From an uncultured Nitrospirales bacterium (GTDB lineage: Bacteria > UBA10199 > JADGCS01): DNA of 15,539 nt. Shown here piece after piece: positions 1 through 15,148 of the stretch. A program made the translations under genes and the position numbers. Location of the stretch: positions 1 through 15,539 of the forward strand of contig CAZGMS010000082.1 in NCBI GenBank assembly GCA_964526915.1. The letters are read 5' to 3'. Numbering within the stretch: position 1 is the stretch's first letter; the number at the start of each line of letters is the position of its first letter. The notes under the pieces were generated by a model that was not told the DNA's origin, made no database searches, and worked only from the letters and a program-made list of their open reading frames with translations.

Positions 1-412
1 CCACCATGTTGCCCTTTGTGGTGCCGGTGAACATGATGGCGTGGTCCTGTTCGACACTGCGGATGATCTTGTTCGTGAGGATCTGGCATTGGGCCCGATC
101 GTATTCGGTAAGCCCTGTTTCGCGTAGCACCGCTTTGCCGGCCTCCATGACTTCGCCCTGATCCGCGTGGTGCACCTGCATCATGCCAAAGTGACGTTCG
201 GTCACAAGGGACCCCAACCTGACCTTTGTTCCTTTGAGTGCCATGTCTGTGAAACGGTGAATTTCCATGGCGGGCGCGATTTCAATAAAGAGCGCCGCGT
301 CATATTCAGACGGGTCGTACACGCGATTGTCTTTGGCAATAAACTGCGCCAGTTGTGGTTGCAGGCTATCGAGAAAGATGAGGGTTCTGAGTTCAAATTT
401 GGGACTGCTCAT
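1..412 (-). CDS. BMC shell protein, N-terminal part (gene continues past the window start); probably a permuted tandem-BMC (EutL/PduB-like BMC-T)
   Basis: Minus-strand ORF starting at ATG 412-410 (MSSPKFELRTLIFLDSL...), preceded by AAGGAG 7 nt upstream. It is absent from the ORF track because it runs off the window. It contains two BMC-type motifs about 50 aa apart (DMALKGTKVRLGSL and MEAGKAVLRETG). It lies inside a BMC operon. Confidence 0.5.
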   Translation of the reverse strand, partial: MSSPKFELRTLIFLDSLQPQLAQFIAKDNRVYDPSEYDAALFIEIAPAMEIHRFTDMALKGTKVRLGSLVTERHFGMMQVHHADQGEVMEAGKAVLRETGLTEYDRAQCQILTNKIIRSVEQDHAIMFTGTTKGNMV

Positions 413-474
413 AATATGCTCCTTGTTTTGTTATAGGCCATATATGACCTATAAAACTGATAAGACCTGTAAAA

Positions 475-1377
475 TTAATAATTTCCTTTTCCTGTCTTGC
501 CTGTCACAATCGCCACCGAAGCCGAAGCGCCAATCCGGTTCGCACCGGCCTTGATCATGGCCTCGGCGTCTTCCTTGGTGCGCACGCCACCGGAGGCCTT
601 GACCTCCATGTCTTTGCCGACCACCCTGCGCATGAGGGCGATATCTTCCACCGTGGCACCGCCACCGGCAAAGCCAGTGGAGGTCTTGACAAAAGCCGCG
701 TGAGCCGCCTTGGACAGCGCGCACGCGATGATTTTTTCTTCATCGGTCAGCGATGAGGTCTCGATGATCACCTTGACTTTTTTGGGACGCGAGGCCTCCA
801 CCACTTTCAGAATGTCTTCGTAAACAAGTTGGTAATCGCGATCCTTGATGGCCCCGATGGCGATCACCATGTCGATTTCTTCGGCGCCATTGCGGATGGC
901 CTCTTTGGCCTCAAAAACCTTGGCCTGTGTGGAGGCGGCTCCCAACGGGAACCCTACTACGGCTATGGGCTTGACGGTTGATCCCTTGAGGAGTCTCGCG
1001 CAGAACGGGATGTTGCTGGAGTTCACACAGACGGTGGCAAAACCGTATTGTTTGGCTTCAACGCAGAGTTTGGTCAGCTCGTCCTTGGTGGCGTCTGGTT
1101 TGAGCAGGGTGTGATCAATCATGCCCGCGATCTTTTGATCAACGCCCTGTTTGATGCCCGTTGAGGACCCTACGCGCGCGGCACCGGTATCGACCAGATT
1201 GTTGATCGCGCCCGGTTTGTTGACCACACATTGTCCGCAATTATTGCAGGCAGAAGGGTCGCTAGAGCAAATGGGGGCGTTGGGGTTTCCCGGAGACAGT
1301 GTTTGGTTCAGCCTCTCCGTAACCTTTTTGGTGATGAGTTCAACCAGTTGTTCGATGTTGGTATTGTTGATTTCCAT
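475..1377 (-). CDS. deoC: Deoxyribose-phosphate aldolase (class I DeoC) with a ~75-aa N-terminal extension carrying a predicted encapsulation peptide
   Basis: Residues ~80-300 align along their length with short DeoC (IDHTLLKPDATK, FATVCVN, GFPLG, KVIIET, FVKTSTGF, KASGGVRT, RIGAS). The N-terminus IEQLVELITKKVTERL is an amphipathic helix typical of BMC encapsulation peptides, followed by a Pro/Cys-rich linker. RBS GGAG 7 nt upstream. Confidence 0.9.
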   Translation of the reverse strand: MEINNTNIEQLVELITKKVTERLNQTLSPGNPNAPICSSDPSACNNCGQCVVNKPGAINNLVDTGAARVGSSTGIKQGVDQKIAGMIDHTLLKPDATKDELTKLCVEAKQYGFATVCVNSSNIPFCARLLKGSTVKPIAVVGFPLGAASTQAKVFEAKEAIRNGAEEIDMVIAIGAIKDRDYQLVYEDILKVVEASRPKKVKVIIETSSLTDEEKIIACALSKAAHAAFVKTSTGFAGGGATVEDIALMRRVVGKDMEVKASGGVRTKEDAEAMIKAGANRIGASASVAIVTGKTGKGNY

Positions 1378-1380
1378 ATT

Positions 1381-1650
1381 TTACTCCAAATTCACCTTAT
1401 CCACCACGCCGCAAATGACTGAGTGAAAAGGGTCTTCCCGTTTGCCCAGTATTTGTCTGGCGCAGTTACCTTCTTGCTCCACCAAAACCACATCGCCCAC
1501 ACCCGCTTGTACGGAATCAAATGACAAGAAGGATTTCCCCTTGTCGTTTCCGTGTTCATCAACCGGTTGCACAATCAGCATTTTGTGTCCTTGGTAGGCC
1601 GGTTGCTTGATGGTGGCGACCACATTGCCAATGACTCTGCAGAGGATCAT
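1381..1650 (-). CDS. BMC vertex protein BMC-P (EutN/PduN/CcmL family), paralog 1
   Basis: 89 aa, MILCRVIGNVVATIKQP...GVGDVVLV is the canonical EutN/CcmL fold signature. AAGGAG RBS. The start overlaps the stop of the upstream BMC-P (ATGA). Confidence 0.9.
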   Translation of the reverse strand: MILCRVIGNVVATIKQPAYQGHKMLIVQPVDEHGNDKGKSFLSFDSVQAGVGDVVLVEQEGNCARQILGKREDPFHSVICGVVDKVNLE

Positions 1651-1997
1651 TTGGTCTCCTTTGGTCCGTCGGAGCTCAAATGAGCGGAGGCGACCTCTTC
1701 AAAAATATTTTGTTTGTTCGCGATCCCTTTGTCCTCCACAGTCAATTCGTCCACAATCCCTGTGATGGCCGCATCTACCGGCGCGAACGGGTTGGGCAGG
1801 GCCAGTGTGGATTCTTTGGCCAGCGTGTAATAAACAATCTCCTGCGGGCCAGCTTGCACAGTGTCGATGGCGGCAATTGGTCCGCCGTCAGGACGATACT
1901 GTTCATCAAGCGGCTGGATCATCAGTATCTTCAGGTTCTGGATGCCGGGGTCTTTGACAGTGGCAACAACCGTGCCGATGACTTTAGCTAGTTTCAT
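1647..1997 (-). CDS. BMC vertex protein BMC-P (EutN/PduN family), paralog 2, with C-terminal extension
   Basis: MKLAKVIGTVVATVKDP...LKILMIQPLDE is the EutN/PduN signature. 116 aa with an extra C-terminal tail. Confidence 0.85.
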   Translation of the reverse strand: MKLAKVIGTVVATVKDPGIQNLKILMIQPLDEQYRPDGGPIAAIDTVQAGPQEIVYYTLAKESTLALPNPFAPVDAAITGIVDELTVEDKGIANKQNIFEEVASAHLSSDGPKETK

Positions 1998-2099
1998 AAA
2001 AAATAGTCTCTGATTGTTTTAATCTGGGCTTAAGGCTCAAGGCACAAGGTGTAAGGCGTCAAAATCGCCCTATGCCTTACGCCTTTAGCCATGCGCCCT

Positions 2100-2657
2100 T
2101 TACCAATACACTCCCCTTGCCAACATCTCTGGATGCGGTGCCTCGATGATTTCGCACCCAGCCAACATACCCGTGTTTTTGACAAATTCCTTTGCCCGTT
2201 CCATTGAGGCCTGAACATCGCACAATGCGCCCGTGATCATAAAATACCCTTTGCCCCCCAGGCCGTTGGCCAGTCTGACTTCCACGAGTTTGCTGTCGGT
2301 CGCCTTGGCCGCGATATCGGCGGCTTCAACACAGGTTGCGATCGAAAATGTTTCAACAATCCCGAGCGCACCAAAATGATCAATCACATTTGTTCCTGTG
2401 ATGGCAGGGATGAGGTCTGGGTGTGCGTGTGGCAGGAACATGTGGCTTACGATCATGTCATGTCCGATCTCGATCCCTTTTTTTAGGGATTCCTCCACAT
2501 CGGCCACCTCACCGCAAATGAGCACCATGTATTTGCCCGGGCAGATGGCATGGGTTTCGAGAACGCGCACAGGCGCCTTCTTGACCATCTCATCGGTGGT
2601 CTTGAACCCTTTGGCGACAGATTTGAATTCGATCATGGCGAGTGCTGGTTCAATCAT
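2100..2657 (-). CDS. PduT-like tandem-BMC-domain shell protein (BMC-T) with a conserved Fe-S-ligand cysteine
   Basis: 185 aa with two BMC domains. The first carries ICPGKY, matching the PduT Cys38 4Fe-4S ligand motif. The second is canonical (ALGIVETFSIATCVEAADIAAKAT...GKGYFMITG). The size matches PduT (184 aa). Confidence 0.85.
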   Translation of the reverse strand: MIEPALAMIEFKSVAKGFKTTDEMVKKAPVRVLETHAICPGKYMVLICGEVADVEESLKKGIEIGHDMIVSHMFLPHAHPDLIPAITGTNVIDHFGALGIVETFSIATCVEAADIAAKATDSKLVEVRLANGLGGKGYFMITGALCDVQASMERAKEFVKNTGMLAGCEIIEAPHPEMLARGVYW

Positions 2658-2672
2658 AAAGTGTAAAGGCTC

Positions 2673-4016
2673 CTAGCGCTGAGCCTGAATTTCAATGGTC
2701 GTTTCCGAAACGGATTTCACCACACCAGAAATCGAGGCGTGGTAGTTGGTCCCCAAGGCCCCTGCTGGGCAGGGCGCAATCAAATCTCCCAAGCTGACAG
2801 TCTGACCCTGTTTGACAACAGGCAGGGATTTGGCTCCCACATGCCGGTGCAAGGGGACAATCACATCAAAAACATTTTGATAACCCAGATAAGGGGTTTC
2901 TTTTTTGTATTTCAGTAAATCCAGTTTTTTAAGAAGCACATCAATCGCCACCTTGCGGTCTTCATAGGCACTGTTGCAGGTGGTGGGCTTGCTGTTGTGC
3001 GGGTTTTTCACGCCTTTGGCAACGAGTTCCCTGCGGTAAGCGGCATAGATTTTTTTGGGGGAGAGACGCATGACATCGCACGCGACCATCTCGCACATCC
3101 CGCACTGACTGCACAAAAAGGCCGATGTGATGTTTTGCGTGGGTTCAGATAAATTGTAATCGATGGTGCGCATGGTGGCATGCGGGAAAATCGCGTGCCC
3201 CAACAGGTTGCGAGGGCAGAGGTCGGTACAGCGGAAACACTGACAACATGCCGCCTTGGAGAGTTTGATCATTTGCCCTACGCTGAGGGTCTTGGCGCGC
3301 ACTACAAAATGATCGCGTGGCAACACAAGCACACCACTGCAGGTTTTGGCGATGCCGAGAGAAAGGTCATCAACGATATTGCCCATCATGGGACCGCCAT
3401 CAATCACGACAGGGTTATCGGTAGTGATTCTGCCTGCCAGGGCGAGGAGTGTTGTGTAGGGGGTGCCGATGGGGACCTTGACGACGCAGGGTTTTTCGAC
3501 TTCACCGGTAATGGTTACCATTCTCTCGGTGACAGGCTTGCCATTGACGGCGTCGGTCATTTGGTAGAGAGAAAGGACGTTGCTCACGACCACGCCCACG
3601 TTGAGTGGCAGGCCACCTTCGGGGATGATCCGTTTTGTCGCATCATAAACAGTCAAGAACTCATCACCTGCGGGATAATAATTTTGAAGTTTGTGAATAT
3701 GAATATTTTGTTTGGGATCGAGTGCCTTGGTGAGCGCGTTCACCACATCGGTATAGTGCCCTTTGACAGCGATGATTCCCTGTTTGGCGCCGGTGGTCTT
3801 CATGGCCAGGGCAACACCTGTAACCACCTGATCCGCGTGTCTGATCATGAGGGTCTTGTCGGTGTTGAGCAGGGGCTCACATTCGGAACCATTGGCGAGC
3901 ACGGTGTCCACGCTGGCTTTGAGTTTGATGTGCGGGGGGAACCCGCCGCCACCGGCACCCACGATGCCTGCATTAAAGACGGAGTTGATGATATCGTTTG
4001 CTGTCAAATGGTTCAT
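2673..4016 (-). CDS. PduS-like RnfC-family Fe-S flavoprotein (BMC-associated oxidoreductase)
   Basis: Collinear with PduS throughout: GIVGAGGGGFPPHIKL, YPAGDEFLT, GGPMMG, two Cys clusters (CCQCFRCTDLCPRNLLGH and CSQCGMCEMVAC), and a C-terminal GALGTNYHASISGVV. The likely start at 4016 overlaps the AldDH stop by 1 nt (TGATG); the ORF track extends it to 4049. Confidence 0.9.
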   Translation of the reverse strand: MNHLTANDIINSVFNAGIVGAGGGGFPPHIKLKASVDTVLANGSECEPLLNTDKTLMIRHADQVVTGVALAMKTTGAKQGIIAVKGHYTDVVNALTKALDPKQNIHIHKLQNYYPAGDEFLTVYDATKRIIPEGGLPLNVGVVVSNVLSLYQMTDAVNGKPVTERMVTITGEVEKPCVVKVPIGTPYTTLLALAGRITTDNPVVIDGGPMMGNIVDDLSLGIAKTCSGVLVLPRDHFVVRAKTLSVGQMIKLSKAACCQCFRCTDLCPRNLLGHAIFPHATMRTIDYNLSEPTQNITSAFLCSQCGMCEMVACDVMRLSPKKIYAAYRRELVAKGVKNPHNSKPTTCNSAYEDRKVAIDVLLKKLDLLKYKKETPYLGYQNVFDVIVPLHRHVGAKSLPVVKQGQTVSLGDLIAPCPAGALGTNYHASISGVVKSVSETTIEIQAQR

Positions 4017-5470
4017 CAAATAATCCTGAAATACCCCGAGACCACGCACCGCCTGATTTTGGTAAAGTGGCGAGCGGTGGTCACGCCCTCACCTGTGGGT
4101 GAGGCGATCGTAAAGGACGCGGGCCCTTCGCCGTCCATGCCCAATCCGGACAGAGCCATCCCGTTTTTCACAAAAATGGAGGTGCCCATCTTCACGGCCA
4201 TGTTGTGCAGGTTTTCGATATTCTTGGAATGCATGGCCGAGGTGTGGAAGCGTCCCCCCTCGAGCTCGTACGCGCAGTCGATGGCTTGATTCACATTGCC
4301 CACGCGGATGAAAGGCACCACGGGCAGGAGCATTTCGATTTGCGCGAACGGGTGTTTGTGATCGGTTTCGGTGATGGCAAGCCTGATGGCGGGGTCCACA
4401 TCAATCCCAATTTGTTTCAAGATGTGCTGAACGTCTTTGCCCACGAAATCCTTGTTGGGGTGGTCACCGTCCACAATCACTTTTTCGAGTCGTTTGGCGT
4501 GATATGGTGTGAGTTCAAACGCGCCGCTTTTCAGCAGGGCTTTTTTAAACGGATCGGCGGCTTTTTCTGTCACAATGATTTCTTTTTCGATGGCGCAAAT
4601 GATGTTGTTGTCGCAACTCGATGAGGTGATGATGTCGCGGGCGGCTTTGTCGAGATCGGCCGTTTCGTCCACCACAACAGGCGGGTTGCCGGGACCTGCC
4701 GCGACCACACGTTTGCCTGTGCCCATGGCGGCCTTGACCACAGCGGGTCCGCCGGTCACCACCAGAAGTTTAATGTCCTTGTGATTCATGAGCTGGTTGG
4801 CCGAGGCAATGGTGGGGGTCGCGATGGTGGTGAATAAATTGGGGGGGCCGCCTTCACTGATGACGGCCTGGTTCATGAGGTCAATCACAAAGACCGAGAT
4901 TTTTTTGGCTGTGGGGTGCGGGTTGAAAACCACCGTGTTGCCTGCGGCGATCATGCCGATCCCGTTGCAGATGATGGTTTCTGTGGGGTTGGTGCAGGGA
5001 GTGATGGACCCGATCACACCCCAAGGGGCCTTTTCCAAAAGGGTAAACCCGTGATCACCTGTGAAGGTTTGTGGCTCGATGTCTTCAACGCCCGGTGTTT
5101 TGTTGATGGCCAACAGATTTTTTTTGATCTTGTCTTCGACTCTGCCCAGACCGGTTTCTTCACGGGCCATCTTTGAGAGCAGTTCCACATTGGCTTTGCA
5201 GAGGTCCCTGATTTTTTGGATGATGCGTTTGCGTTGTTCGAGTGAGATTTGTTTGAAATCGTCCAGAGCCTTGACGCTGGCCGCGATGGCGTCGTCGATC
5301 GAACCAAAACAGCCACGGGAACCAGTGAACGCGGCGTCTTTTTTGGGTTCCTGTTTGGAGACGGTCGCTGTTGTGTTCGCAGGACGTCCAGCAGGCGGCG
5401 TGTCTTTGACCTGAATTTGAGACACCACCTTATCGACAATGGAACTGATTTGTTCGTCGGAGAATTTCAT
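4016..5470 (-). CDS. CoA-acylating aldehyde dehydrogenase (PduP/EutE family) with N-terminal encapsulation peptide
   Basis: 484 aa. The N-terminus MKFSDEQISSIVDKVVSQI is an encapsulation-peptide helix followed by a linker. ALDH fold with catalytic Cys region SSSCDNNIICAIEKE and the PduP-like GPGNPP motif. Confidence 0.9.
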   Translation of the reverse strand: MKFSDEQISSIVDKVVSQIQVKDTPPAGRPANTTATVSKQEPKKDAAFTGSRGCFGSIDDAIAASVKALDDFKQISLEQRKRIIQKIRDLCKANVELLSKMAREETGLGRVEDKIKKNLLAINKTPGVEDIEPQTFTGDHGFTLLEKAPWGVIGSITPCTNPTETIICNGIGMIAAGNTVVFNPHPTAKKISVFVIDLMNQAVISEGGPPNLFTTIATPTIASANQLMNHKDIKLLVVTGGPAVVKAAMGTGKRVVAAGPGNPPVVVDETADLDKAARDIITSSSCDNNIICAIEKEIIVTEKAADPFKKALLKSGAFELTPYHAKRLEKVIVDGDHPNKDFVGKDVQHILKQIGIDVDPAIRLAITETDHKHPFAQIEMLLPVVPFIRVGNVNQAIDCAYELEGGRFHTSAMHSKNIENLHNMAVKMGTSIFVKNGMALSGLGMDGEGPASFTIASPTGEGVTTARHFTKIRRCVVSGYFRII

Positions 5471-5477
5471 AGGTCAG

Positions 5478-5682
5478 CGTGAATCGTGAATCGTGGATTG
5501 TGGATCGTAAAATGGTTTGTCATCCCAGCGGAAGCTGGGATCCAGAACTGTTGACAGTAGGGATTTCTGCTTTGGTTCGACTTTGCTCACCACCCTGAGC
5601 GCCTGTCGAAGGGTCGCAGGAATGACATACCTACTCAACAATTCGCATTTCGATCCACGATCGACGACCCACAACCCACGAT
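5478..5682. repeat. MITE-like element copy A: heptad-repeat terminal inverted repeats flanking hairpin 1 plus an expanded hairpin 2
   Basis: Left end (CGTGAAT)2-CGTGGAT-TGTGGAT-CGT, then AAAATGG + GTCATCCCAGCGGAAGCTGGGATCCAGAACTGTTGACAG ... CGCAGGAATGAC...CAACAATTCGCATTTCGA. Right end TCCACGA-TCGACGA-CCCACAA-CCCACGA. It fills the whole gap between the BMC-P stop (5684) and the AldDH start (5470). Confidence 0.75.
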
Positions 5683-5683
5683 A

Positions 5684-5977
5684 TTACGGATTCTTCACAT
5701 ACCTTTTGTCGCCATCGATTTCCAAAATATCGACAATGGCCATGATGACGGCATCGACCGGTTTGTTTTCGGTTGCTTGTGTCATTCTGGCCGAGGAGCC
5801 GCTGGCGACCAAGACAACTTCGCCAACACCCGCACCGACAGAATCCGCGGCCACCACAAAACTGCCAGTGGGTTTGCCATCGGTGTCGACATATTTGACC
5901 AGTTGCAACCTGAGGCCCTCAAGTTTTTCGTCCTTGCGGGTGGCCACAACGGTTCCTACAATTTTGCCTAGTTGCAT
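5684..5977 (-). CDS. BMC vertex protein BMC-P (EutN/PduN family), paralog 3
   Basis: True start [27 protein letters not shown] at 5977. The track ORF is artificially extended into the repeat. Canonical EutN/CcmL signature. Confidence 0.85.
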
Positions 5978-5984
5978 AAAACAG

Positions 5985-6187
5985 CGTGGTTCGTGGATCG
6001 TGGGTCGTGGATCGTGGATCGAAAAATGGCTTGTCATCCCAGCGAAAGCTGGGATCCAGAACTGTTGACAATAGTCATTCCTGCTTTCGCAGGAATGACT
6101 ATCCGCTCAACAATTCGCATTTTGACCCACTATTCACGACCCACTATCCACGATTCACGACTCACGATCCACGATCCACGACCCACG
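5985..6187. repeat. MITE-like element copy B (most complete copy): 5 heptads, hairpin 1, hairpin 2, 9 heptads
   Basis: CGTGGTT-CGTGGAT-CGTGGGT-CGTGGAT-CGTGGAT, then AAAAATGGCTTGTCATCCCAGCGAAAGCTGGGATCCAGAACTGTTGACAATAGTCATTCCTGCTTTCGCAGGAATGACTATCCGCTCAACAATTCGCATTTTGA, then nine copies of NYCACGA. It sits between the BMC-H stop (6193) and the BMC-P start (5977). Confidence 0.8.
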
Positions 6188-6192
6188 AAAAA

Positions 6193-6489
6193 TTACTTTG
6201 CCACTTTTTTGACATTGCGACCCAAAGGCAAAGCCACATCGATATTCTCGTGTGGTCTGGGGATGACGTGAACGGAAACGAGTTCGCCAACCTTTTCGGC
6301 TGTTCTGGCGCCGGCTTCGGTCGCGGCTTTCACGGCGGCCACATCACCTCTGACAATCGCGGTCACAAAACCACCACCAATTTTTTCGTAACCAACAAGT
6401 TCAACCTTGGCGGCTTTCACCATGGCGTCACTGGCCTCGACCATTGCGACAAAACCTTTGGTTTCGATCATTCCTAATGCGTCTGCCAT
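6193..6489 (-). CDS. BMC hexamer shell protein BMC-H (PduA/EutM/CcmK family)
   Basis: True start [60 protein letters not shown] at 6489 with AAGGAG RBS. The track ORF is over-extended upstream. First gene of the operon. Confidence 0.95.
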
Positions 6490-6600
6490 ATCAATCTCCT
6501 TTATTAACGATTTAGAGGCCCCCTTATTACTATTACAATAGGGAACCAAGTTTGGTCGGCATAGACTTTTTTTTTGGGGACTGTCAATAGTTAATGATAT
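6490..6600 (-). promoter_or_regulatory. Candidate sigma70-type promoter and structured leader of the BMC operon
   Basis: On the minus strand: TTGACA (plus 6583-6588), an 18-nt spacer, TATGCC (plus 6558-6563), and a ~60-nt leader containing a CCCT...AGGG inverted repeat with a TATTAC direct repeat just before the RBS. It lies in an AT-rich, >400-bp non-coding region. Confidence 0.3.
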
Positions 6601-6717
6601 TATCGTTAAAGAAAACCACATTCAAAATCATTTTATAATAACACGAGATATTTAGTGATATATGATGCTATTTAATGGTTGATGATTAGTGCCAATTGTG
6701 ATAATCAGTTTCTAGAT

Positions 6718-6912
6718 TGCGGATTGTGGCTCGTCATTGAGAGGGTGAACTGCGTTGGAATTGCCAAAAGGCAATTTTAATACTGTGCCCCAAGGGATAC
6801 CGGGGTAATCCAGAAATGATACTGTGGATTGCTTCGATTCGCTTTGTGAATCTCGCAATGACCAGCTGTTTGTACTTTTAGACGATTCACGAACATCGAT
6901 CCACGATCCACT
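6718..6912. repeat. Degenerate copy (E) of the heptad-TIR element
   Basis: Left end GCGGATTGTGGCTCGT matches copy A CGTGGATTGTGGATCGT at about 14 of 17 positions. The internal CCCCAAGGGATACCGGGGTAATCCAGAAATGA is homologous to hairpin 1 + ATCCAGAACTGTTGA. Right end CGATTCACGAACATCGATCCACGATCCAC. Confidence 0.4.
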
Positions 6913-6918
6913 CTTCTC

Positions 6919-7104
6919 ATGCAATATTCCGAAGTCATGACAACCAACGAGGCCATGAAGTACCTCAAAATCACCCGCAAGACCCTGCTCAAATTGGTCA
7001 AAACGGGTGAGCTCAAGGGCGCCAAGGTGGGCAAGGATTATCGCTACCTCAAAAGCGAGATCGACAAGTTTCTCAAAGGGGAAAAAGAGGAACGGCTGTT
7101 TTGA
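6919..7104 (+). CDS. Excisionase-family helix-turn-helix DNA-binding protein (alternative start at 6937)
   Basis: MTTNEAMKYLKITRKTLLKLVKTGELKGAKVGKDYRYLKSEIDKFL is the excisionase/MerR-type HTH pattern. It begins right after a heptad TIR, and its stop TGA lies in a GAATCGT heptad remnant. No clear RBS. Confidence 0.6.
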   Translation: MQYSEVMTTNEAMKYLKITRKTLLKLVKTGELKGAKVGKDYRYLKSEIDKFLKGEKEERLF

Positions 7105-7113
7105 ATCGTATCT

Positions 7114-7179
7114 TGTCATCCCTGCGAAGGCAGGGATCCAGTTTCTGTCATCCCTGCGTGGTCCCTGCCTTCGCAGGGA
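7114..7179. repeat. Hairpin 1 (GTCATCCCTGCGAAGGCAGGGATCCAG) followed by a second fused hairpin (GTCATCCCTGCG-TGGT-CCCTGCCTTCGCAGGG)
   Basis: Same hairpin 1 as the MITE core but with compensatory changes in the stem (CAGC/GCTG becomes CTGC/GCAG). It sits immediately upstream of the GIY-YIG gene. Confidence 0.6.
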
Positions 7180-7199
7180 GGGAACCAGAGCATAGATTT

Positions 7200-7487
7200 A
7201 TGAAGACATACTATGTGTATATTCTTGCCAGCAAAAAAAATGGCACATTGTATGTCGGTGTTACGAGCAATTTGTCCAAAAGAATATTTGAGCACAAACA
7301 AGACCTGGTGGATGGGTTCACAAAAAAATATGGGGTTCATTCTTTGGTTTATATTGAACAAACAAATGATGTGAACGACGCATTGCTTAGAGAAAGAAGA
7401 TTGAAGGCTTGGAAGAGGCAATGGAAAATAGATCTGATTGAAAAATCGAACCCGAATTGGAACGATTTGTATGAAGATTTGTTTTAG
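7200..7487 (+). CDS. Small GIY-YIG nuclease family protein (~95 aa, COG2827-like)
   Basis: True start MKTYYVYILASKKNGTLYVGVTSNLSKRIFEHKQ (GIY...YVG motif with downstream R and E). The track ORF is over-extended upstream through the hairpins. Confidence 0.85.
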   Translation: MKTYYVYILASKKNGTLYVGVTSNLSKRIFEHKQDLVDGFTKKYGVHSLVYIEQTNDVNDALLRERRLKAWKRQWKIDLIEKSNPNWNDLYEDLF

Positions 7488-7494
7488 GAAACAT

Positions 7495-7520
7495 GGATTC
7501 CTGCTTTCGCAGGAATGACA
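7495..7520. repeat. Hairpin 2 (GGATTCCTGCTTTCGCAGGAATGACA), the MITE core second hairpin, immediately downstream of the GIY-YIG gene
   Basis: Near-identical to GTCATTCCTGCTTTCGCAGGAATGAC in copy B. The following GCTATAAATTCGG resembles the MITE GCTCAACAATTCGCA. Confidence 0.6.
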
Positions 7521-7537
7521 AAGCTTTGAGCTTTGAG

Positions 7538-7836: not shown

Positions 7837-10506
7837 TTATGCGGCTGTTCTGGGGAGCCTGTTCTCGTCCATGATTCTTTGATGGGCCAGTCTTTGCAGG
7901 TATGTTCGGATGATGGGATATTTCTCCATCATGTCCTTCAGATCGGCCTCGCTAAAACGAAGGACGGTGACATGGCCTTGCGCACTGACATTTGCCTTGC
8001 GTGCCTGATGGTTGATGGAGGCCATTTCGCCGACTACCGTTCCGGGACCAACTGTGATTCTACGGTCATGGGGCGCATATGACCAGATCTCCGCTAGGCC
8101 ATCCACAATCAGAAAGGCGTCTTTGTTGGTGTGATCGCCCTCGGCGATAAATCGATTGCCCGCGAACATGGTTTCTTCGCTGGCAATCATGAGCAAGGCG
8201 GTGAGGATGGCGTCCGAAATATCAGGCAGGGCCTGTTTGAGCAGGCGATAGTATTTTTTTCGGAGTTCTCTAACGTGTCGCAGCGTCTCAGTGTGCTGAC
8301 CAAGTACCTCGGTCAGCGTTTTGGCAGAAAAAGTCAAAACCTGTGAGGGCATGGAGGCCACAGCACTGGCGTTACGAGGTTCACCAAAGAGTGCTCCCTC
8401 ACCGATGATCCCAAAGGGCACATGGGTGAGTTCCGAACCGTCAGCGTAAAGTCTGAATCCGCCCGAGACAATCATTCTGACAGAGGTGTCTGTTGCGTCG
8501 CTTCCTGCTGTTGCCTCATCTTGAAGCATCAACACCGCTCCTATGTCAAACGTGGCGAGTGTGGTGGCCGCGGCCAAAGCCTGCTTTTGCTCGGTGGACA
8601 GGCCCGCCAAAAGGGGTGACCATTCAATGAAGCGCAAATTTCTCTCTTGTATGCTGTCTTCTGTTTCGGGCTGTTTGGGAAAATGATTGGCCAGCGAAAT
8701 AAATCCCTGATGACCCGCCAATAGTTTGGGGACACCCACCTGGGCCGCTCTGCCGTCACTCACGTGATAGAATTTGACCCGATTCAACACCTCATGCAGT
8801 TCGACTCCTTTTTTTTCTGCAAAAGTCTTGAGCCACGCCAGGGTGACTTCGGGATCGGTATGCAGACCCTTCATGCCAGCCTCAATCAAAATCATGGGAG
8901 GGTTGGGCTGATCCCAGGTGCTTTCCAAAAGATGTTGGTAACGCAGAATTTCGGCCTTGCGTGCCGGGTGCATATCAGGAAACAGCCGATCCAGTTCGGC
9001 AGAATCAGCCAAAGTATCTCCACTGATGTAGAGCGCGAGTTGGCCCCCTGTGTCCGCAGGCGCTGTCCAGACTTCAATGGCCTCGGCGGCCACAGAATGA
9101 CAGGTGTAGTGGGTTCTGAGCCACATGCCCCGGACCGCAACGAACTGTCGAGGTTTGAGTTCCACAAAATTCAATTGAGTCAAACCCTCGGGTTTGCCAT
9201 TAACGGCGATGCTTAGGGTGTATGCATCCTGACAAATATTGTACAAGGTTTTTGTTCCGTACCAATTGAGTTTTGGGCACAGGAACATGAGTTCTATACT
9301 GGCAGGAGTGAAATGATCGGTGTGATCATGTGTGATGGCGATGCCCTCCACCGCGTTCAAGGGAATCCCGTTTTGTATGAGATAAGCAACCGTCTGTGCC
9401 GGGGGGTCGATCAGCGTAACCTTGCCATCCTTCCAAAGCATGAACCCGCTGGTGCCCTCGCCCGAAAAATAATCCGCTGTGCTGATGGGCCAAAGACCTG
9501 CTTCGCCGTCTATCAAGACCCGTTTGCGGATTTCCTGAAACTTGGGATCGAACATGGTTCTGGGATCAACATCGAGATTTTCCACGGGCGGGGCGAATTC
9601 CGGTTTGCCCAGATCGATAGTGCGTAGCAAATGCCCGCGATCATAAATTTCGTACGCCATGGGTCCTTTTTCCTGAGCCTGTTTGACGACAACGCTACCA
9701 TCCCCGATCGTGATTTCGTCGTTCTCAAAATGGGTGACTCTGGAAAAGTCCTCGGATGCCTTGTTGGCGAAACGCTGTGTTTCAGTGCCCAAATCGGGAA
9801 TGCCCTCTTCATTGGAAGCATGTTCGTCTCGTACACTGTCGGTCAGTTTTTGTGGGTTGCGTCCCTGAAAGGCCTCTTTCAAAAAGGCACTGACTTTCCC
9901 TGCGTCACCCGGGGTTGGCAAATAAAAATTAAACCCAGCTTGTTGCAAGAGCGGCCAAAAGTAGGGATAACGGGTAAAGTCTACCGCGTGATAACCCGTT
10001 GTAAATGTCGTGTAACCTTTGACAGGCACATAGTGCAGGGGCATGTAATGACCGAGTTTATCAGAGGGTGTTTTGCCGGGTTGTCCGCCGTTTTTAAAGA
10101 ACATCTGAATGGCATCGAGGTGCGATCCCATGGGGAGCCCCAACTGTACCCAACCTTGAGACGTGTAAACGGCAACGCCACCGCGCCTCATTTTTTGCAC
10201 ATAACCGTATGGTTTGCCAATGGGGCCTGTGTTATCGGAACCGCCTGTTCCACCCGGGCGATCAGTGGATTGTGGGGCGTCCGAGCTTGGTGTTGCAGGT
10301 GCGGCAAGCCTTTGCGCTGCAGGTTTTCTTGTTTGCCTTCCCGTCAAATGTGCAGTTTGGGCCGTTGCACCAGCAAAGGCGGCATAACGACTCGCCAAGC
10401 TTTGTGTTGCCTTACCGCGAGTTGGATTGCCTGTGGAAAGGATGAAAACGTTTGGTGCGACGGGTTGTGCGAGTGGGGCTCTTAAGGCGGTGGTTGCTGT
10501 GTTCAT
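7837..10506 (-). CDS. Large multidomain protein: disordered Ala/Thr/Pro-rich N-terminus, an unknown domain, a metallo-beta-lactamase-fold hydrolase domain, and two C-terminal cyclic-nucleotide-binding (CAP-like) domains
   Basis: 889-aa ORF with GGAGG RBS 5 nt upstream of ATG 10506. MBL motifs ITHDHTDHF (HxHxDH), later THYTCHS, YISGDT and FYHVSDG. The cNMP-binding signatures FGIIGEGALFGEPRNASAVA and VGPGTVVGEMASINHQARKANVSA are each followed by coiled-coil-like helices. Confidence 0.8.
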   Translation of the reverse strand: MNTATTALRAPLAQPVAPNVFILSTGNPTRGKATQSLASRYAAFAGATAQTAHLTGRQTRKPAAQRLAAPATPSSDAPQSTDRPGGTGGSDNTGPIGKPYGYVQKMRRGGVAVYTSQGWVQLGLPMGSHLDAIQMFFKNGGQPGKTPSDKLGHYMPLHYVPVKGYTTFTTGYHAVDFTRYPYFWPLLQQAGFNFYLPTPGDAGKVSAFLKEAFQGRNPQKLTDSVRDEHASNEEGIPDLGTETQRFANKASEDFSRVTHFENDEITIGDGSVVVKQAQEKGPMAYEIYDRGHLLRTIDLGKPEFAPPVENLDVDPRTMFDPKFQEIRKRVLIDGEAGLWPISTADYFSGEGTSGFMLWKDGKVTLIDPPAQTVAYLIQNGIPLNAVEGIAITHDHTDHFTPASIELMFLCPKLNWYGTKTLYNICQDAYTLSIAVNGKPEGLTQLNFVELKPRQFVAVRGMWLRTHYTCHSVAAEAIEVWTAPADTGGQLALYISGDTLADSAELDRLFPDMHPARKAEILRYQHLLESTWDQPNPPMILIEAGMKGLHTDPEVTLAWLKTFAEKKGVELHEVLNRVKFYHVSDGRAAQVGVPKLLAGHQGFISLANHFPKQPETEDSIQERNLRFIEWSPLLAGLSTEQKQALAAATTLATFDIGAVLMLQDEATAGSDATDTSVRMIVSGGFRLYADGSELTHVPFGIIGEGALFGEPRNASAVASMPSQVLTFSAKTLTEVLGQHTETLRHVRELRKKYYRLLKQALPDISDAILTALLMIASEETMFAGNRFIAEGDHTNKDAFLIVDGLAEIWSYAPHDRRITVGPGTVVGEMASINHQARKANVSAQGHVTVLRFSEADLKDMMEKYPIIRTYLQRLAHQRIMDENRLPRTAA

Positions 10507-10790
10507 GCTGTCCTCCCCATTTTATGTGATGATACCAGCCGCATAGTGCTTTTGGTGTCTGGTGTCAAAATTTTCTTGTAGACAGGGGGCATGCGTCAGG
10601 AAATGGTGTCATGTCATCACGAGTAGGTCGCCGCAGGCGGACGACGTGGTGATCTCCATATTGTTTCTTGTGGATCGCCACGCTTCGCCATGAGCCTGTA
10701 AATGGCTCATGGCTCCGCTCGCGATGACGGTGACTTATCACTAATTCATTTTCATTGAACAAGGCCAGGTTTTCTGTTTTATGGCTGGGC

Positions 10791-12086: not shown

Positions 12087-12217
12087 ATCGTTGTTCGTGG
12101 GGTGCTCTGTCATTCCAGCCTGTCAGCCATAGGACTGATCCCGCTCTGCGTGCGCTGGGATGACAAAACACATTTCGATTCACGATTCACGATCCACGAT
12201 CCACGATCTGCGAGAAT
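12068..12217. repeat. MITE-like element copy C between cydA and cydB (heptad TIRs plus a variant long hairpin)
   Basis: CGTGAAT-CGTGGTT-CGTGAAT-CGTTGTT-CGTGGGG, then GTCATTCCAGC-(34 nt)-GCTGGGATGAC, then AAAACACATTTCGA + TTCACGA-TTCACGA-TCCACGA-TCCACGA-TCTGCGA. Confidence 0.7.
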
Positions 12218-12219
12218 TT

Positions 12220-14830: not shown

Positions 14831-15085
14831 CCTAACCCATTATAATCACACAAAATATTATTTTATGGTATTGGCACAGGGATTGCAGTCCGTAAGACGA
14901 GTACGTGCCCATTTTGTTACAGTACTGGCGTGTTTACGAGGGGAATAAAACAGGCATGAAAACTGGCGGGGCAACTCACAAAAAGAGCGTGGCTTGTGGC
15001 TTAGCGGTTATTGCACCGCGTCAACAAATATTATGCGAATGAACAAGCAGTCTTGTTTTCTATGATTTATGCGACTAGGGAGAAG

Positions 15086-15141
15086 CGTGGATCGTGAATC
15101 GTGAATCGCGGATCGTGAATCGTGGATCGTGGATCGTGGGG
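15086..15141. repeat. Heptad-repeat inverted repeat, left arm (8 x CGTGGAT/CGTGAAT) flanking the four-helix-bundle gene
   Basis: CGTGGAT-CGTGAAT-CGTGAAT-CGCGGAT-CGTGAAT-CGTGGAT-CGTGGAT-CGTGGGG, read directly. Confidence 0.75.
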
Positions 15142-15148
15142 AAGTGAG

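What the first reader, a model, noticed from the sequence alone, without database searches (positions are those of the whole stretch)
1..6489. Aldolase (DeoC)-based metabolosome operon with an unusual accessory set
The gene content is BMC-H, three BMC-P, a PduT-like BMC-T, a second (probably EutL/PduB-type) BMC-T, an encapsulation-peptide-bearing acylating aldehyde dehydrogenase, encapsulation-peptide-bearing DeoC, and PduS. This is consistent with the sugar-phosphate-utilising (SPU) class of BMCs. In that class deoxyribose-5-phosphate is split to acetaldehyde and G3P, and the acetaldehyde is oxidised to acetyl-CoA inside the shell. These loci are poorly characterised experimentally. PduL/phosphotransacylase, an alcohol dehydrogenase and a sugar-phosphate isomerase are not seen in the window and probably lie beyond position 1.
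Basis: partly seen in the sequence, partly recalled or inferred. Interest (0 to 1): 0.7.

Follow-up and report, generated by a model that had tools for sequence, protein, structure and literature searches.

The report
SPU5-type deoxyribose-phosphate bacterial microcompartment operon
This is an ordinary, well-preserved example of an already catalogued bacterial protein organelle (the "SPU5" sugar-phosphate microcompartment) that probably breaks down the deoxyribose of DNA, so it is a new member of a known kind, not a new kind of system.

Summary
The listed genes are all present on the minus strand of 1-6489: BMC-H, three BMC-P, an acylating aldehyde dehydrogenase and a DeoC/DERA that each carry an N-terminal amphipathic extension, a PduS-like flavoprotein, a PduT-like BMC-T and a truncated second BMC-T. 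The SPU assignment is right, and it can be narrowed to subtype SPU5 of the published catalogue. Three details are wrong. (1) The second BMC-T is a CsoS1D/CcmP-class double-stacking BMC-T(dp), not EutL/PduB. (2) The accessory set is not unusual. PduS plus a Cys-pore PduT is the published MNdh/BMC-T(SE) NAD+-recycling module, and this explains why there is no alcohol dehydrogenase. (3) PduL, an alcohol dehydrogenase and RpiB are not expected beyond position 1. The window is a whole contig. In six syntenic relatives, one from a genome catalogued as SPU5, the operon continues with a FucA-like class II aldolase, with or without triose-phosphate isomerase, and then ends. SPU DERA has also been assayed in vitro (2024). 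Three side observations may be new. The DERA extension carries a conserved ferredoxin-like four-Cys motif. Hairpin MITE-like repeats sit inside the operon and replace the ribosome-binding sites of two genes. The same hairpins flank a GIY-YIG gene next door.

The parts
1..412 (-). BMC-T(dp) shell protein, N-terminal 137 residues only (the ORF runs off the contig end); CsoS1D/CcmP/HO-5816 class, with the gating Glu-Arg pair kept (E72-R73)
   Evidence: PDB phmmer E 6e-34 (7dhq), 2e-30 (HO-5816), 4e-27 (CsoS1D), 1e-25 (CcmP), no EutL/PduB. 79% identical to the BMC-T(dp) of L091, a catalogued SPU5 genome. Full-length 217-aa orthologues in relatives carry PF27545 CsoS1D_N. ER position.
475..1377 (-). 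Deoxyribose-5-phosphate aldolase (DeoC/DERA), 300 aa. The catalytic TIM barrel is residues 81-300, with D169, K202 and K231 invariant. An 80-residue N-terminal extension precedes it.
   Evidence: TIGR00126 265 bits against cut-off 117. PDB DERA 6d33 E 2e-75 over residues 81-300. Invariant columns in 115 homologues. AF2 mean pLDDT 84.
1300..1365 (-). Encapsulation-peptide-like amphipathic helix of DERA (residues 5-26)
   Evidence: AF2 helix 5-26, block pLDDT 62-82. Hydrophobic moment 0.53, reached by 1.7% of shuffles. Matches the published description of the SPU DERA extension (PMC11585597).
1228..1269 (-). Four-Cys motif C37-x6-C44-x2-C47-G-x-C50 (then x4-P55) in the DERA extension; ferredoxin-like; metal not known
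   Evidence: C44, C47, G48 and C50 are invariant, and C37 and P55 are at least 90% conserved, in 115 homologues. The strict motif is in 114 of 117 full-length hits. Sub-threshold Pfam Fer4_6/Fer4/Fer4_15 hits at residues 40-52, E 0.0025-0.02. AF2 confidence here is only 51-71.
1381..1650 (-). BMC-P (pentamer/vertex) paralogue 3, 89 aa
   Evidence: PF03319 E 2e-24
1647..1997 (-). BMC-P paralogue 2, 116 aa, with a C-terminal tail
   Evidence: PF03319 E 2e-23
2100..2657 (-). BMC-T(s) of the PduT / BMC-T(SE) type, 185 aa, two BMC domains; pore motif C39-P-G-K at 2532-2543
   Evidence: PF00936 x2. PDB PduT 3pac E 8e-39, with ICPGKY aligned to PduT ICPGKF, the 4Fe-4S ligand C38. The CP(G/S)K rule is from PMC11626177.
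2673..4016 (-). PduS homologue / MNdh (metabolosome NADH dehydrogenase), 447 aa from the ATG that overlaps the AldDH stop (TGATG). GAGGGGFP nucleotide/FMN loop and two Cys4 Fe-S motifs at residues 257 and 302.
   Evidence: PF01512, PF10531, PF13534, PF13375. Motifs and start junction. Only 15 bases (2658-2672) separate it from the BMC-T(s) gene.
4016..5470 (-). CoA-acylating aldehyde dehydrogenase (EutE/PduP type), 484 aa, catalytic Cys292; N-terminal encapsulation peptide about residues 5-22 (5405-5458), followed by a low-complexity linker to about residue 50
   Evidence: NF011927 631 bits against 403. PDB 5jfl E 1e-127 with NNLPCVAEKE aligned to NNIICAIEKE. Hydrophobic moment 0.57, reached by 0.3% of shuffles.
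5473..5685 (.). MITE-like repeat copy A between the BMC-P1 stop and the AldDH start; it abuts the AldDH ATG and leaves no Shine-Dalgarno sequence
   Evidence: Repeat families D1-D5 and inverted arms. RNA fold -90.7 kcal/mol, z -7.4. Upstream sequences, compared with SD-bearing relatives.
5684..5977 (-). BMC-P paralogue 1, 97 aa from MQLGKIVG (the longer ORF call to 6037 is translated repeat DNA)
   Evidence: PF03319 E 6e-31, domain starts at residue 21 of the long ORF. Orthologues start MQLGKI.
5980..6190 (.). MITE-like repeat copy B between the BMC-H stop and the BMC-P1 start; 89% identical to copy A over the 96-nt core
   Evidence: D5, I8-I10. RNA fold -115 kcal/mol, z -12.
6193..6489 (-). 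BMC-H major hexamer shell protein, 98 aa
   Evidence: PF00936 E 8e-30. Best native PDB match is Haliangium ochraceum HO-5815, E 7e-45. AAGGAG Shine-Dalgarno sequence.
6540..6600 (-). Candidate promoter region. TATTGACAGT (a -35-like TTGACA at 6582-6587) is the only well-conserved block shared with the upstream region of L084. Low confidence.
   Evidence: Pairwise alignment. The consensus promoter scan is not above shuffles.
6919..7104 (+). Small HTH_17 protein (61 aa) transcribed divergently from the operon; possible regulator (inferred from conserved position only)
   Evidence: PF12728 E 4e-15. Same divergent position in the P0001 contig and in L084, where it is 88% identical.

Best explanation
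The window holds the first nine genes of an SPU5-subtype sugar-phosphate-utilising metabolosome operon. The ninth gene is cut by the contig end.

Shell: the shell is built from one BMC-H (facets), three BMC-P paralogues (vertices), a PduT-like BMC-T(SE) whose Cys39 pore should hold a 4Fe-4S cluster, and a gated double-stacking BMC-T(dp).

Cargo: DERA and the acylating aldehyde dehydrogenase are recruited by their N-terminal amphipathic peptides. The PduS homologue (MNdh) docks on the lumenal face of BMC-T(SE).

Chemistry: deoxyribose 5-phosphate enters the shell. It comes from deoxynucleosides through a nucleoside phosphorylase and phosphopentomutase. [quoted passage not shown] The AldDH traps the acetaldehyde as acetyl-CoA and makes NADH. 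MNdh re-oxidises the NADH and passes the electrons through its two Fe-S clusters and the BMC-T(SE) cluster to an acceptor outside. [quoted passage not shown] With no PTAC, acetyl-CoA/CoA and the sugar phosphates probably pass through the BMC-T(dp).

Shown here: the identity of every gene, the catalytic and cofactor motifs, the extensions, and synteny with catalogued SPU5 loci.

Taken from papers: in-vitro DERA activity of an SPU6 orthologue, and electron transfer by a Clostridium MNdh/BMC-T(SE) pair.

Inferred: the substrate, the flux direction, the routes across the shell, and that the missing 3' end of the operon carries a FucA-like class II aldolase with a C-terminal encapsulation peptide, plus triose-phosphate isomerase, as in the relatives.
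For: Gene identities.

DERA: passes the deoC equivalog and keeps D169/K202/K231. Residues 81-300 match solved DERAs at E 2e-75.

AldDH: passes NF011927, and Cys292 aligns with the catalytic Cys of 5jfl.

Encapsulation peptides.

MNdh module: four domains and Fe-S motifs, the gene next to a BMC-T(s) with CPGK. This meets the criteria in PMC11626177.

[quoted passage not shown] The window or its relatives match each point.

Synteny: the same gene order is seen in the P0001 contig (83% DERA identity), L084/L085, L001/L002, L092, and L091, which is Gammaproteobacteria bacterium RIFCSPHIGHO2_02_FULL_42_13, a genome listed as SPU5 in the catalogue trees.

Substrate context: in L091 the locus is flanked by phosphopentomutase, purine-nucleoside phosphorylase and thymidine kinase. 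All three pass NCBIfam equivalog cut-offs. This supports deoxyribose phosphate as the substrate.
Against: No experiment exists for any SPU5 locus. The substrate is inferred from family membership and from the context of one relative.

The window itself has no deoB, deoD or tdk, and it ends inside the operon. The aldolase and TPI genes, and the absence of RpiB and PTAC, are therefore extrapolated from relatives.

In the 2021 catalogue only 4 of 8 SPU5 loci had DeoC and 5 had the class II aldolase. DERA may therefore not be the only, or the main, signature enzyme.

MITE-like elements abut the start codons of BMC-P1 and AldDH and leave no Shine-Dalgarno sequence, unlike in the relatives. Expression of the core enzyme in this organism is uncertain.

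The external electron acceptor is unknown.
Confidence: 0.75

Rival explanations
1. The compartment is centred on the class II aldolase, as in HO or PVM types. In this reading the main substrate is a ketose 1-phosphate such as fuculose, rhamnulose, ribulose or 5-deoxyribulose 1-phosphate. The FucA-like aldolase encoded just beyond the contig end cleaves it to DHAP plus an aldehyde. TPI converts the DHAP, and the AldDH oxidises that aldehyde. DERA is then a second or auxiliary aldolase.
For: All six syntenic relatives encode a PF00596 aldolase directly after the BMC-T(dp). Where its C-terminus is on the contig it ends in an amphipathic tail, with moment 0.46 in L084. It resembles L-fuculose-phosphate aldolases (PDB 4c24, E 1e-25). 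It is not an FBP aldolase, and it passes no NCBIfam equivalog. The catalogue found this aldolase in 5 of 8 SPU5 loci and DeoC in only 4. The SPU5 AldDH is closest to the HO type, which has the aldolase but no DeoC in its locus. The window's BMC-H is most similar to HO-5815.
Against: The aldolase gene is not in the window. DERA carries its own encapsulation peptide, passes the deoC equivalog and is present in every syntenic relative examined here. The missing DeoC in catalogue loci is partly an artefact of annotation and fragmentation (PMC11585597; the start site in L091 is mis-called). L091 is flanked by deoxynucleoside-catabolism genes, not fucose or rhamnose genes. The two readings do not exclude each other.
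Confidence: 0.15
2. The locus is a classical complete metabolosome. PduL, an alcohol dehydrogenase and an RpiB-type isomerase lie just beyond position 1, and PduS is an odd extra.
For: Other SPU subtypes do carry PTAC (SPU1/4/7), AlcDH (some SPU2/4/6) and RpiB (most subtypes). The window is truncated, so this cannot be excluded directly.
Against: None of the syntenic relatives has PF06130, PF00465 or PF02502 within about 9-10 kb. In each the operon ends after the aldolase and TPI, where opposite-strand or unrelated genes begin. SPU5 is defined by lack of RpiB. The MNdh/BMC-T(SE) module replaces AlcDH for NAD+ recycling. BMC-T(dp) typically occurs in the subtypes that lack PTAC.
Confidence: 0.05
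3. The locus is a decaying or partly silenced copy. Two roughly 210-bp hairpin repeat elements have inserted inside the operon. They replaced the ribosome-binding sites of BMC-P1 and AldDH, so the compartment is no longer made efficiently in this organism.
For: The elements lie 4 nt from each ATG and no Shine-Dalgarno sequence remains. BMC-H, BMC-P3, DeoC and BMC-T(dp) have AAGGAG/GGAG, and the relatives have SD sequences before BMC-P1 and AldDH. The inserted spacers fold at -91 and -115 kcal/mol. That stability could block ribosomes or terminate transcription.
Against: All nine reading frames are intact, with catalytic residues conserved. Identical sequence was recovered from several samples. 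Relatives also have very stable hairpins of unrelated sequence after BMC-H, so structure at that site may be tolerated or even useful. The same element sits between cydA and cydB, an operon that is unlikely to be dispensable.
Confidence: 0.1
4. The compartment runs in the condensing direction. It would scavenge acetaldehyde by DERA-catalysed aldol addition to glyceraldehyde 3-phosphate, and possibly by class II aldolase addition to DHAP. This idea has been proposed for Atribacteria BMCs.
For: DERA and FucA-type aldolases are reversible. TPI in the relatives would supply either triose phosphate.
Against: An acylating AldDH with an NADH-oxidising module fits aldehyde oxidation, not aldehyde consumption by condensation. 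A relative's locus sits among deoxynucleoside-catabolism genes. The published scheme for SPU is catabolic.
Confidence: 0.05

Closest known systems
SPU5 subtype of the sugar-phosphate-utilising BMC (Sutter et al. 2021, PMC8217296; Dwyer et al. 2024, PMC11585597)
   Same: Same enzyme and shell inventory and the same gene order as a genome catalogued as SPU5 (L091). These are an AldDH with an N-terminal EP, a PduS-associated Cys-pore BMC-T(s), a BMC-P triplet, a single BMC-H, a CsoS1D-like BMC-T(dp) (79% identical) and a DERA with an N-terminal extension. There is no RpiB or PTAC in the relatives, and a PF00596 aldolase with a C-terminal EP follows in them.
   Different: The window stops inside the BMC-T(dp), so the aldolase and TPI genes are not seen. 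Two repeat elements are inserted in the operon. The catalogue had only 8 SPU5 loci, many of them incomplete. The relatives found here suggest a fuller consensus of 11 genes that includes both DERA and the aldolase.
HO BMC of Haliangium ochraceum and related Myxococcota
   Same: BMC-H and BMC-T(dp) are most similar to HO-5815 and HO-5816 among native solved structures. Also shared are the BMC-P triplet, an AldDH with an N-terminal EP, and the associated PF00596 aldolase. The catalogue places the SPU5 AldDH next to the HO AldDH.
   Different: HO main loci lack DeoC. The HO BMC-T(s) lacks the pore cysteine, and a PduS partner is found only as a satellite in a few HO genomes. HO function is unknown.
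SPU6 BMC of Chloroflexi (the only SPU type with purified enzymes)
   Same: DERA with an N-terminal extension and conserved catalytic Asp/Lys/Lys residues, paired with an AldDH.
   Different: SPU6 has an RpiB-like partner that complexes with DERA, a C-terminal EP on its AldDH, no PduS/MNdh and a different BMC-T(dp) clade.
MNdh / BMC-T(SE) (PduS/PduT) cofactor-recycling module (PMC11626177)
   Same: Same four-domain flavoprotein next to a tandem BMC-T with a CP(G/S)K pore motif.
   Different: The characterised pair is from Clostridium botulinum. Nothing is known about the acceptor in this organism.
PVM BMC (Planctomycetes/Verrucomicrobia) and type II SPU-like compartments of Myxococcota/Hodarchaeales (PMC12747264)
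   Same: A class II aldolase, and in type II compartments a TPI, encoded with an AldDH inside a BMC locus. The Hodarchaeales loci also have DERA.
   Different: PVM has no DERA (from my own knowledge of Erbilgin et al. 2014, not re-read here). Hodarchaeales DERA is fused to a flavoprotein domain and their loci carry PTAC and citrate synthase. The window's DERA carries a Cys4 motif instead.

Membership tests
SPU BMC (Dwyer 2024 definition) | Shell genes PF00936 and PF03319 clustered with enzymes | tested here: met
   One BMC-H, two BMC-T and three BMC-P within 6.5 kb on one strand
SPU BMC (Dwyer 2024 definition) | DERA (PF01791) in the locus with conserved catalytic Asp/Lys/Lys | tested here: met
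   TIGR00126 265 bits against 117. D169, K202 and K231 invariant. Aligned to solved DERAs.
SPU BMC (Dwyer 2024 definition) | DERA carries an N-terminal extension with an amphipathic helix that free-living DERAs lack | tested here: met
   80-residue extension; helix 5-26; moment 0.53; PDB DERAs start at residue 81
SPU BMC (Dwyer 2024 definition) | Acylating aldehyde dehydrogenase in the locus | tested here: met
   NF011927 631 bits against 403; Cys292 aligned to the catalytic Cys of 5jfl
SPU BMC (Dwyer 2024 definition) | DERA is catalytically active on dR5P and is encapsulated | not testable with these tools
   Only an SPU6 orthologue has been assayed
SPU5 subtype (Sutter 2021 supplement) | No RpiB (PF02502) in the locus | tested here: inconclusive
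   None in the window, but the contig ends inside the operon. None is listed in four relatives with Pfam-annotated genes.
SPU5 subtype (Sutter 2021 supplement) | PduS-homologue-associated BMC-T(s) with a cysteine pore motif | tested here: met
   Genes adjacent; ICPGKY aligned to PduT C38
SPU5 subtype (Sutter 2021 supplement) | BMC-P triplet (green/grey/orange clades) and a single BMC-H | tested here: inconclusive
   The count is met: three BMC-P and one BMC-H. Colour-clade typing needs the BMC Caller HMMs, which are not available here.
SPU5 subtype (Sutter 2021 supplement) | BMC-T(dp) of the CsoS1D-containing clade | tested here: met
   BMC-T(dp) class by PDB. 79% identical to the BMC-T(dp) encoded in L091, a contig of the genome whose BMC-T(dp) A3C55_04370 is listed as SPU5 next to S1D-like entries in the catalogue tree. 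Scores alone do not separate CsoS1D from CcmP (98 against 93.5 bits; the NCBIfam CcmP model gives 179 bits, below its cut-off).
SPU5 subtype (Sutter 2021 supplement) | AldDH with an N-terminal EP, related to catalogued SPU5/HO AldDHs | tested here: met
   EP. The AldDH of catalogued SPU5 genome RIFCSPHIGHO2_02_FULL_42_13 is among the top hits at 62% identity and full length, and it lies in the same gene order. No tree was built.
SPU5 subtype (Sutter 2021 supplement) | PF00596 class II aldolase with a C-terminal EP | not testable with these tools
   It would lie beyond position 1. It is present directly after the BMC-T(dp) in six relatives.
MNdh / BMC-T(SE) module | PF01512 + PF10531 + 4Fe-4S dicluster + PF13375 protein encoded next to a BMC-T(s) with CP(G/S)K | tested here: met
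   Criteria.
MNdh / BMC-T(SE) module | NADH-driven electron transfer across the shell | not testable with these tools
   Shown only for the C. botulinum pair
   The nine significant PDB matches are double-stacking BMC-T(dp) proteins, and the tenth (E 0.007) is a designed tandem BMC-T. No EutL/PduB chain appears at E<=1.
Canonical complete metabolosome core (AldDH + PTAC + AlcDH) | PduL-type PTAC (PF06130) and an alcohol dehydrogenase in the locus | tested here: not met
   Absent from the window and from the Pfam-annotated syntenic relatives

The most novel reading that the evidence does not exclude
The conserved C37/C44/C47/C50 motif in the DERA extension has ferredoxin-like spacing (CxxCGxC, with Pro at +5 and a remote fourth Cys). 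It may bind a single [4Fe-4S] cluster, or another redox-active metal centre. The signature aldolase would then be part of, or regulated by, the lumenal MNdh to BMC-T(SE) electron path, or would need the cluster for core assembly. There is a parallel in the Hodarchaeales compartments, whose DERA is fused to a flavoprotein domain. The motif is not mentioned in the SPU papers I could read.
Probability: 0.2. Interest if true: 0.6.

Novelty: new member of a known kind. Interest (0 to 1): 0.3.

Why it matters
The locus adds little that is new, because it fits the published SPU5 description point by point. It is useful in two ways.

First, it helps define SPU5. With its close relatives it shows an intact, conserved 11-gene SPU5 operon: H, P, AldDH, MNdh, T(SE), P, P, DERA, T(dp), class II aldolase and TPI. 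The catalogue had only eight SPU5 loci, mostly fragmentary, and half of them lacked DeoC. The relatives also show that the associated "class II aldolase" belongs to the FucA family. It is not an FBP aldolase. This argues against the suggested fructose-1,6-bisphosphate product and for a second aldehyde-releasing reaction.

Second, the side observations can be tested cheaply. These are a conserved Cys4 motif on the signature enzyme, and strongly structured repeat elements placed exactly between the major shell gene and the downstream genes. They bear on two open questions for metabolosomes: how redox cofactors are handled inside the shell, and how shell-to-cargo stoichiometry is set.

Tried and rejected
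**Extending the contig.** Exact-protein look-ups for DeoC and AldDH found nothing on record. A 40-nt exact scan of metagenome contigs found nothing. The cluster look-up shows that the window is the whole 15,539-bp record. Other samples give only shorter identical pieces.

**L086.** This contig is 100% identical to window 3115-901 and then diverges inside DeoC into a dockerin-containing ORF. I treated it as a probable assembly chimera or strain variant and did not use it.

**EutL/PduB typing.** Rejected for the truncated ORF.

**Riboswitch or known RNA.** No Rfam family reaches its gathering score anywhere in the window. Only chance-level hits appear in 5400-7200.

**Promoter and terminator scans.** Counts are not above shuffles.

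**DERA extension alone against 1.84 billion representatives.** Only 17 weak hits came back, mostly short fragments, so the search was uninformative.

**Cys-motif region in AlphaFold.** pLDDT is 51-71, and coordinates are not returned, so a metal site can be neither supported nor excluded.

**Cys4 motif against PduS presence across 85 loci.** There is no clean correlation. Other clades have different Cys patterns (2-6 Cys) or none. This lowers the odds of an essential Fe-S cluster.

**MITE core in metagenome contigs.** A scan for the exact 38-nt core gave no match. The heptamer array is absent from all 92 fetched loci.

**cydAB link.** Proximity of cydAB as a functional link to the MNdh electron outlet is seen in the window and in L084 only. 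I regard it as lineage synteny, not as evidence.

Full report
**1. Observation**

The minus strand of 1-6489 carries nine co-directional genes. Their identities are:

- BMC-H at 6193-6489 (PF00936, E 8e-30).
- BMC-P at 5684-5977, 1647-1997 and 1381-1650 (PF03319, E 6e-31 to 2e-23).
- An aldehyde dehydrogenase at 4016-5470.
- A PduS-like protein at 2673-4016, with Complex1_51K, SLBB, a 4Fe-4S dicluster domain and RnfC_N.
- A tandem-domain BMC-T at 2100-2657.
- DeoC at 475-1377.
- A truncated ORF at 2-412 that has no Pfam hit on its own.

NCBIfam places DeoC above the deoC equivalog cut-off (265 bits against 117). It places the dehydrogenase above NF011927, the EutE-type family (631 against 403). 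The inventory is therefore confirmed.

**2. The one wrong label**

In the PDB, the truncated ORF matches only double-stacking permuted BMC-T proteins. These are 7dhq (E 6e-34), Haliangium HO-5816 (2e-30), CsoS1D (4e-27), CcmP (1e-25) and the RMM proteins. No EutL or PduB chain appears even at E<=1. The ORF keeps the Glu-Arg gating pair. It is 79% identical over all 137 residues to the BMC-T(dp) of Gammaproteobacteria bacterium RIFCSPHIGHO2_02_FULL_42_13. That genome is listed as SPU5 in the catalogue trees. The second BMC-T is therefore BMC-T(dp), not BMC-T(sp).

**3. Enzymes and their extensions**

- *DERA.* Solved DERAs align to residues 81-300 at up to E 2e-75. D169, K202 and K231 correspond to E. 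coli D102, K167 and K201, which are named in PMC11585597. They are invariant in 115 homologues.
- *DERA extension.* The first 80 residues are an extension. AlphaFold on that alignment gives a helix at 5-26, a disordered linker at 27-34, and a low-confidence segment up to the barrel. The helix is amphipathic (moment 0.53).
- *AldDH.* It aligns with the BMC-associated acylating dehydrogenase 5jfl at E 1e-127, and Cys292 lies on the catalytic Cys. It has an amphipathic N-terminus (moment 0.57) followed by a Pro/Thr/Lys-rich linker.
- *PduS homologue.* It has the GAGGGGFP loop and two Cys4 motifs. Its ATG overlaps the AldDH stop codon.
- *BMC-T(s).* Its gene follows the PduS gene after 15 bases. 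Its ICPGKY aligns with PduT ICPGKF, which contains the 4Fe-4S ligand.

**4. What kind of locus it is**

The 2021 catalogue describes SPU5 as follows:

- always an AldDH with an N-terminal EP;
- no pfam02502 (RpiB);
- DeoC in four of eight loci;
- a pfam00596 aldolase with a C-terminal EP in five;
- a BMC-P triplet and one BMC-H;
- a PduS-associated BMC-T(s) with a cysteine pore;
- a CsoS1D-clade BMC-T(dp) in four.

The 2024 SPU paper adds further points. RpiB is completely absent from SPU5. PTAC is typical only of SPU1/4/7. PduS homologues occur in every subtype except SPU6. BMC-T(dp) tends to occur where PTAC is missing. All SPU DERAs have the N-terminal extension, which automated annotation often misses.

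The 2024 PNAS paper shows that PduS-like proteins (MNdh) next to CP(G/S)K BMC-T(s) proteins recycle NAD+ by exporting electrons. [quoted passage not shown] The window meets every one of these points that can be tested within it.

**5. What lies beyond position 1**

The window is a complete 15,539-bp record, so it cannot be extended. Six relatives share its gene order:

- the 146-kb contig that carries P0001, with 83% DERA identity;
- L084/L085;
- L001/L002, Gammaproteobacteria MAGs;
- L092, Dehalococcoidia;
- L091, the catalogued SPU5 genome.

In all of them the BMC-T(dp) is followed at once by a PF00596 aldolase. In most a triose-phosphate isomerase follows, either next to the aldolase or a few genes away. 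After that come unrelated or opposite-strand genes. No PTAC, iron alcohol dehydrogenase or RpiB is listed within about 9-10 kb.

The aldolase resembles L-fuculose-phosphate aldolases (E 1e-25) and passes no NCBIfam equivalog. It belongs to the DHAP-dependent FucA/RhaD family. It does not belong to the FBP aldolase family. For that reason I regard the published suggestion of a fructose-1,6-bisphosphate product as less likely than cleavage or formation of a ketose 1-phosphate. That is inference from family membership.

**6. Substrate**

In L091 the locus is flanked by phosphopentomutase, purine-nucleoside phosphorylase, thymidine kinase and TPI. All pass NCBIfam cut-offs. Two MFS transporters are also there. 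This is the classical route from deoxynucleoside to deoxyribose 1-phosphate to deoxyribose 5-phosphate. It supports the published hypothesis that SPU compartments process DNA-derived sugar. The window itself holds no such genes. Its neighbours are listed in section 8.

**7. Mechanism, and what is shown or inferred**

- *Shown here:* gene identities, motifs, extensions and synteny.
- *Shown in papers for orthologues:* DERA activity (SPU6) and MNdh/BMC-T(SE) electron transfer.
- *Inferred:* dR5P enters the shell. DERA yields G3P and acetaldehyde. The AldDH yields acetyl-CoA and NADH. MNdh returns NAD+ and sends the electrons out through the BMC-T(SE) cluster. Acetyl-CoA/CoA and larger sugar phosphates use the gated BMC-T(dp).

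The main rival reading is that the FucA-like aldolase is an equal or principal signature enzyme, as in HO and PVM types.

**8. Things noticed inside and around the locus**

(a) *Cys4 motif on DERA.* The DERA extension carries C37-x6-C44-x2-C47-G-x-C50, with P55 five residues after C50.
- The last three Cys and the Gly are invariant, and C37 and P55 are at least 90% conserved, in 115 homologues. The strict motif is present in 114 of 117 full-length hits.
- It also occurs in the mis-annotated upstream region of the L091 gene.
- The spacing is that of a ferredoxin CxxCxxCxxxCP motif in which the last Cys is replaced and a remote Cys is added.
- Pfam Fer4 models hit it only below threshold (E 0.0025-0.04).
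- More distant SPU DERAs have other Cys patterns or none.
- The readable SPU papers do not mention it.

(b) *Repeat elements inside the operon.* Two roughly 210-bp elements (5473-5685 and 5980-6190) lie inside the operon.
- Each has terminal inverted arrays of a 7-nt unit (CGTGRAT). These enclose two hairpins, GTCATCCCAGCGRAAGCTGGGATCCAG and GTCATTCCTGCTTTCGCAGGAATGAC.
- On the mRNA strand they fold at -91 and -115 kcal/mol, with z scores of -7 and -12.
- Each ends 4 nt before the ATG of AldDH or BMC-P1, and no Shine-Dalgarno sequence is left there. Relatives have one at both sites.
- The BMC-H to BMC-P1 spacer is also strongly structured in L084, with unrelated sequence (z -11), and in L001 (z -4.7). 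A stable stem after the major shell gene may therefore be tolerated, or may be used to set expression ratios.

(c) *Other copies of the repeats.* The same hairpins flank the GIY-YIG gene at about 7200-7487, with an exact 23-nt match between 6077-6099 and 7497-7519. A further element copy lies between cydA and cydB, and arrays flank the 23S-rRNA-IVP gene.

(d) *Neighbouring genes.* Beyond the operon the window encodes an HTH_17 protein, a GIY-YIG nuclease, a zinc-ribbon protein, an 889-aa protein with two cNMP-binding domains, cytochrome bd oxidase, an AAA_14/DUF4143 ATPase and a 23S-rRNA-IVP-family protein. The small HTH_17 gene is conserved in the divergent position upstream of the operon in two close relatives. 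cydAB and an AAA_14/DUF4143 ATPase also recur near the locus in relatives.

**9. Verdict**

The finding is real and the SPU reading is correct. The locus is a typical SPU5 member. It is not an unusual operon, and the predicted PduL/AlcDH/RpiB genes are not expected. Novelty: a new member of a known kind. Interest is low to moderate (0.3). It rests mainly on the untested Cys4 motif of the signature enzyme and on the repeat insertions.

Noticed in passing
window 1228-1269 (-), DeoC residues 37-50: Conserved ferredoxin-like four-Cys motif (C-x6-C-x2-C-G-x-C, Pro at +5) between the encapsulation helix and the DERA barrel. It is invariant or nearly so in 115 homologues. Pfam Fer4 hits are below threshold. 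More distant SPU DERAs show other Cys patterns or none. The SPU papers read here do not discuss it.
   Followed up: partly
window 5473-5685 and 5980-6190; also 12063-12222, 6882-6911, 15080-15145, 15507-15536: A MITE-like repeat family. Terminal inverted arrays of the heptamer CGTGRAT enclose two hairpins, one of which reads 'VIPAKAGIQ' if translated. Two copies lie inside the BMC operon, one lies between cydA and cydB, and arms flank the 23S-rRNA-IVP gene. The copies create spurious N-terminal extensions in ORF calls. No exact core match was found in metagenome contigs, and no heptamer array was found in the 92 fetched loci.
   Followed up: partly
window 7101-7530: The GIY-YIG nuclease gene (real start about 7200) is bracketed by the same two hairpins that form the core of the small repeat elements: 7112-7141 and 7150-7185 upstream, 7495-7519 downstream. 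There is an exact 23-nt match to 6077-6099. The small elements may be gene-less derivatives of a GIY-YIG cassette. A related hairpin pair also lies between the aldolase and TIM genes of L084/L085.
   Followed up: partly
window 5471-5474 and 5978-5981 (just upstream of the AldDH and BMC-P1 ATGs): The repeat elements end 4 nt before these start codons and leave no Shine-Dalgarno sequence. Other genes of the operon, and the same two genes in L084 and L001, have AAGGAG/GAGGAG-type sites. Translation of the core dehydrogenase may be affected.
   Followed up: partly
window 5978-6192; L084 5362-5575; L001 5510-5705: The roughly 200-nt spacer after the BMC-H gene folds into very stable structures in all three loci (z -12, -11, -4.7). 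The L084 sequence is unrelated to the window's. This may be a conserved way of setting the BMC-H to cargo expression ratio, or a hotspot for palindromic insertions.
   Followed up: partly
window 6919-7104 (+): A 61-aa HTH_17 protein is transcribed divergently from the operon. The same arrangement is seen in the P0001 contig and in L084 (88% identical). It could be a locus regulator. A TATTGACAGT block in the shared intergenic region is conserved with L084.
   Followed up: partly
window 10755-13248 (+); L084 58-2524: Cytochrome bd oxidase genes cydAB lie a few kb upstream of the BMC operon, both here and in L084. In L084 a 259-aa ferredoxin-domain protein lies between them. This could relate to disposal of MNdh electrons, or it could simply be lineage synteny.
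   Followed up: no
window 13288-14622 (-); L084 13331-14569; L091 16232-17548: An AAA_14/DUF4143 ATPase gene recurs close to the SPU5 locus in three genomes. Its significance is unknown.
   Followed up: no
window 7837-10506 (-): An 889-aa protein with a low-complexity Pro/Ala/Gly-rich N-terminus, a weak metallo-beta-lactamase-like match and two C-terminal cyclic-nucleotide-binding domains. NCBI names a fragment 'CAP family transcription factor'.
   Followed up: no
L086 2216-3425 against window 901: A JGI contig is 100% identical to window 3115-901 and then diverges inside the DeoC gene into ORFs, one of which has a dockerin repeat. It is either an assembly chimera or a strain in which DeoC is disrupted.
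   Followed up: partly
L091 10506-11553 and 8158-8259: In the catalogued SPU5 genome the PduS homologue is split over two frames, BMC-H is truncated, and the DeoC start is annotated about 80 codons too late. This illustrates why the catalogue under-counted DeoC and PduS in SPU5.
   Followed up: partly
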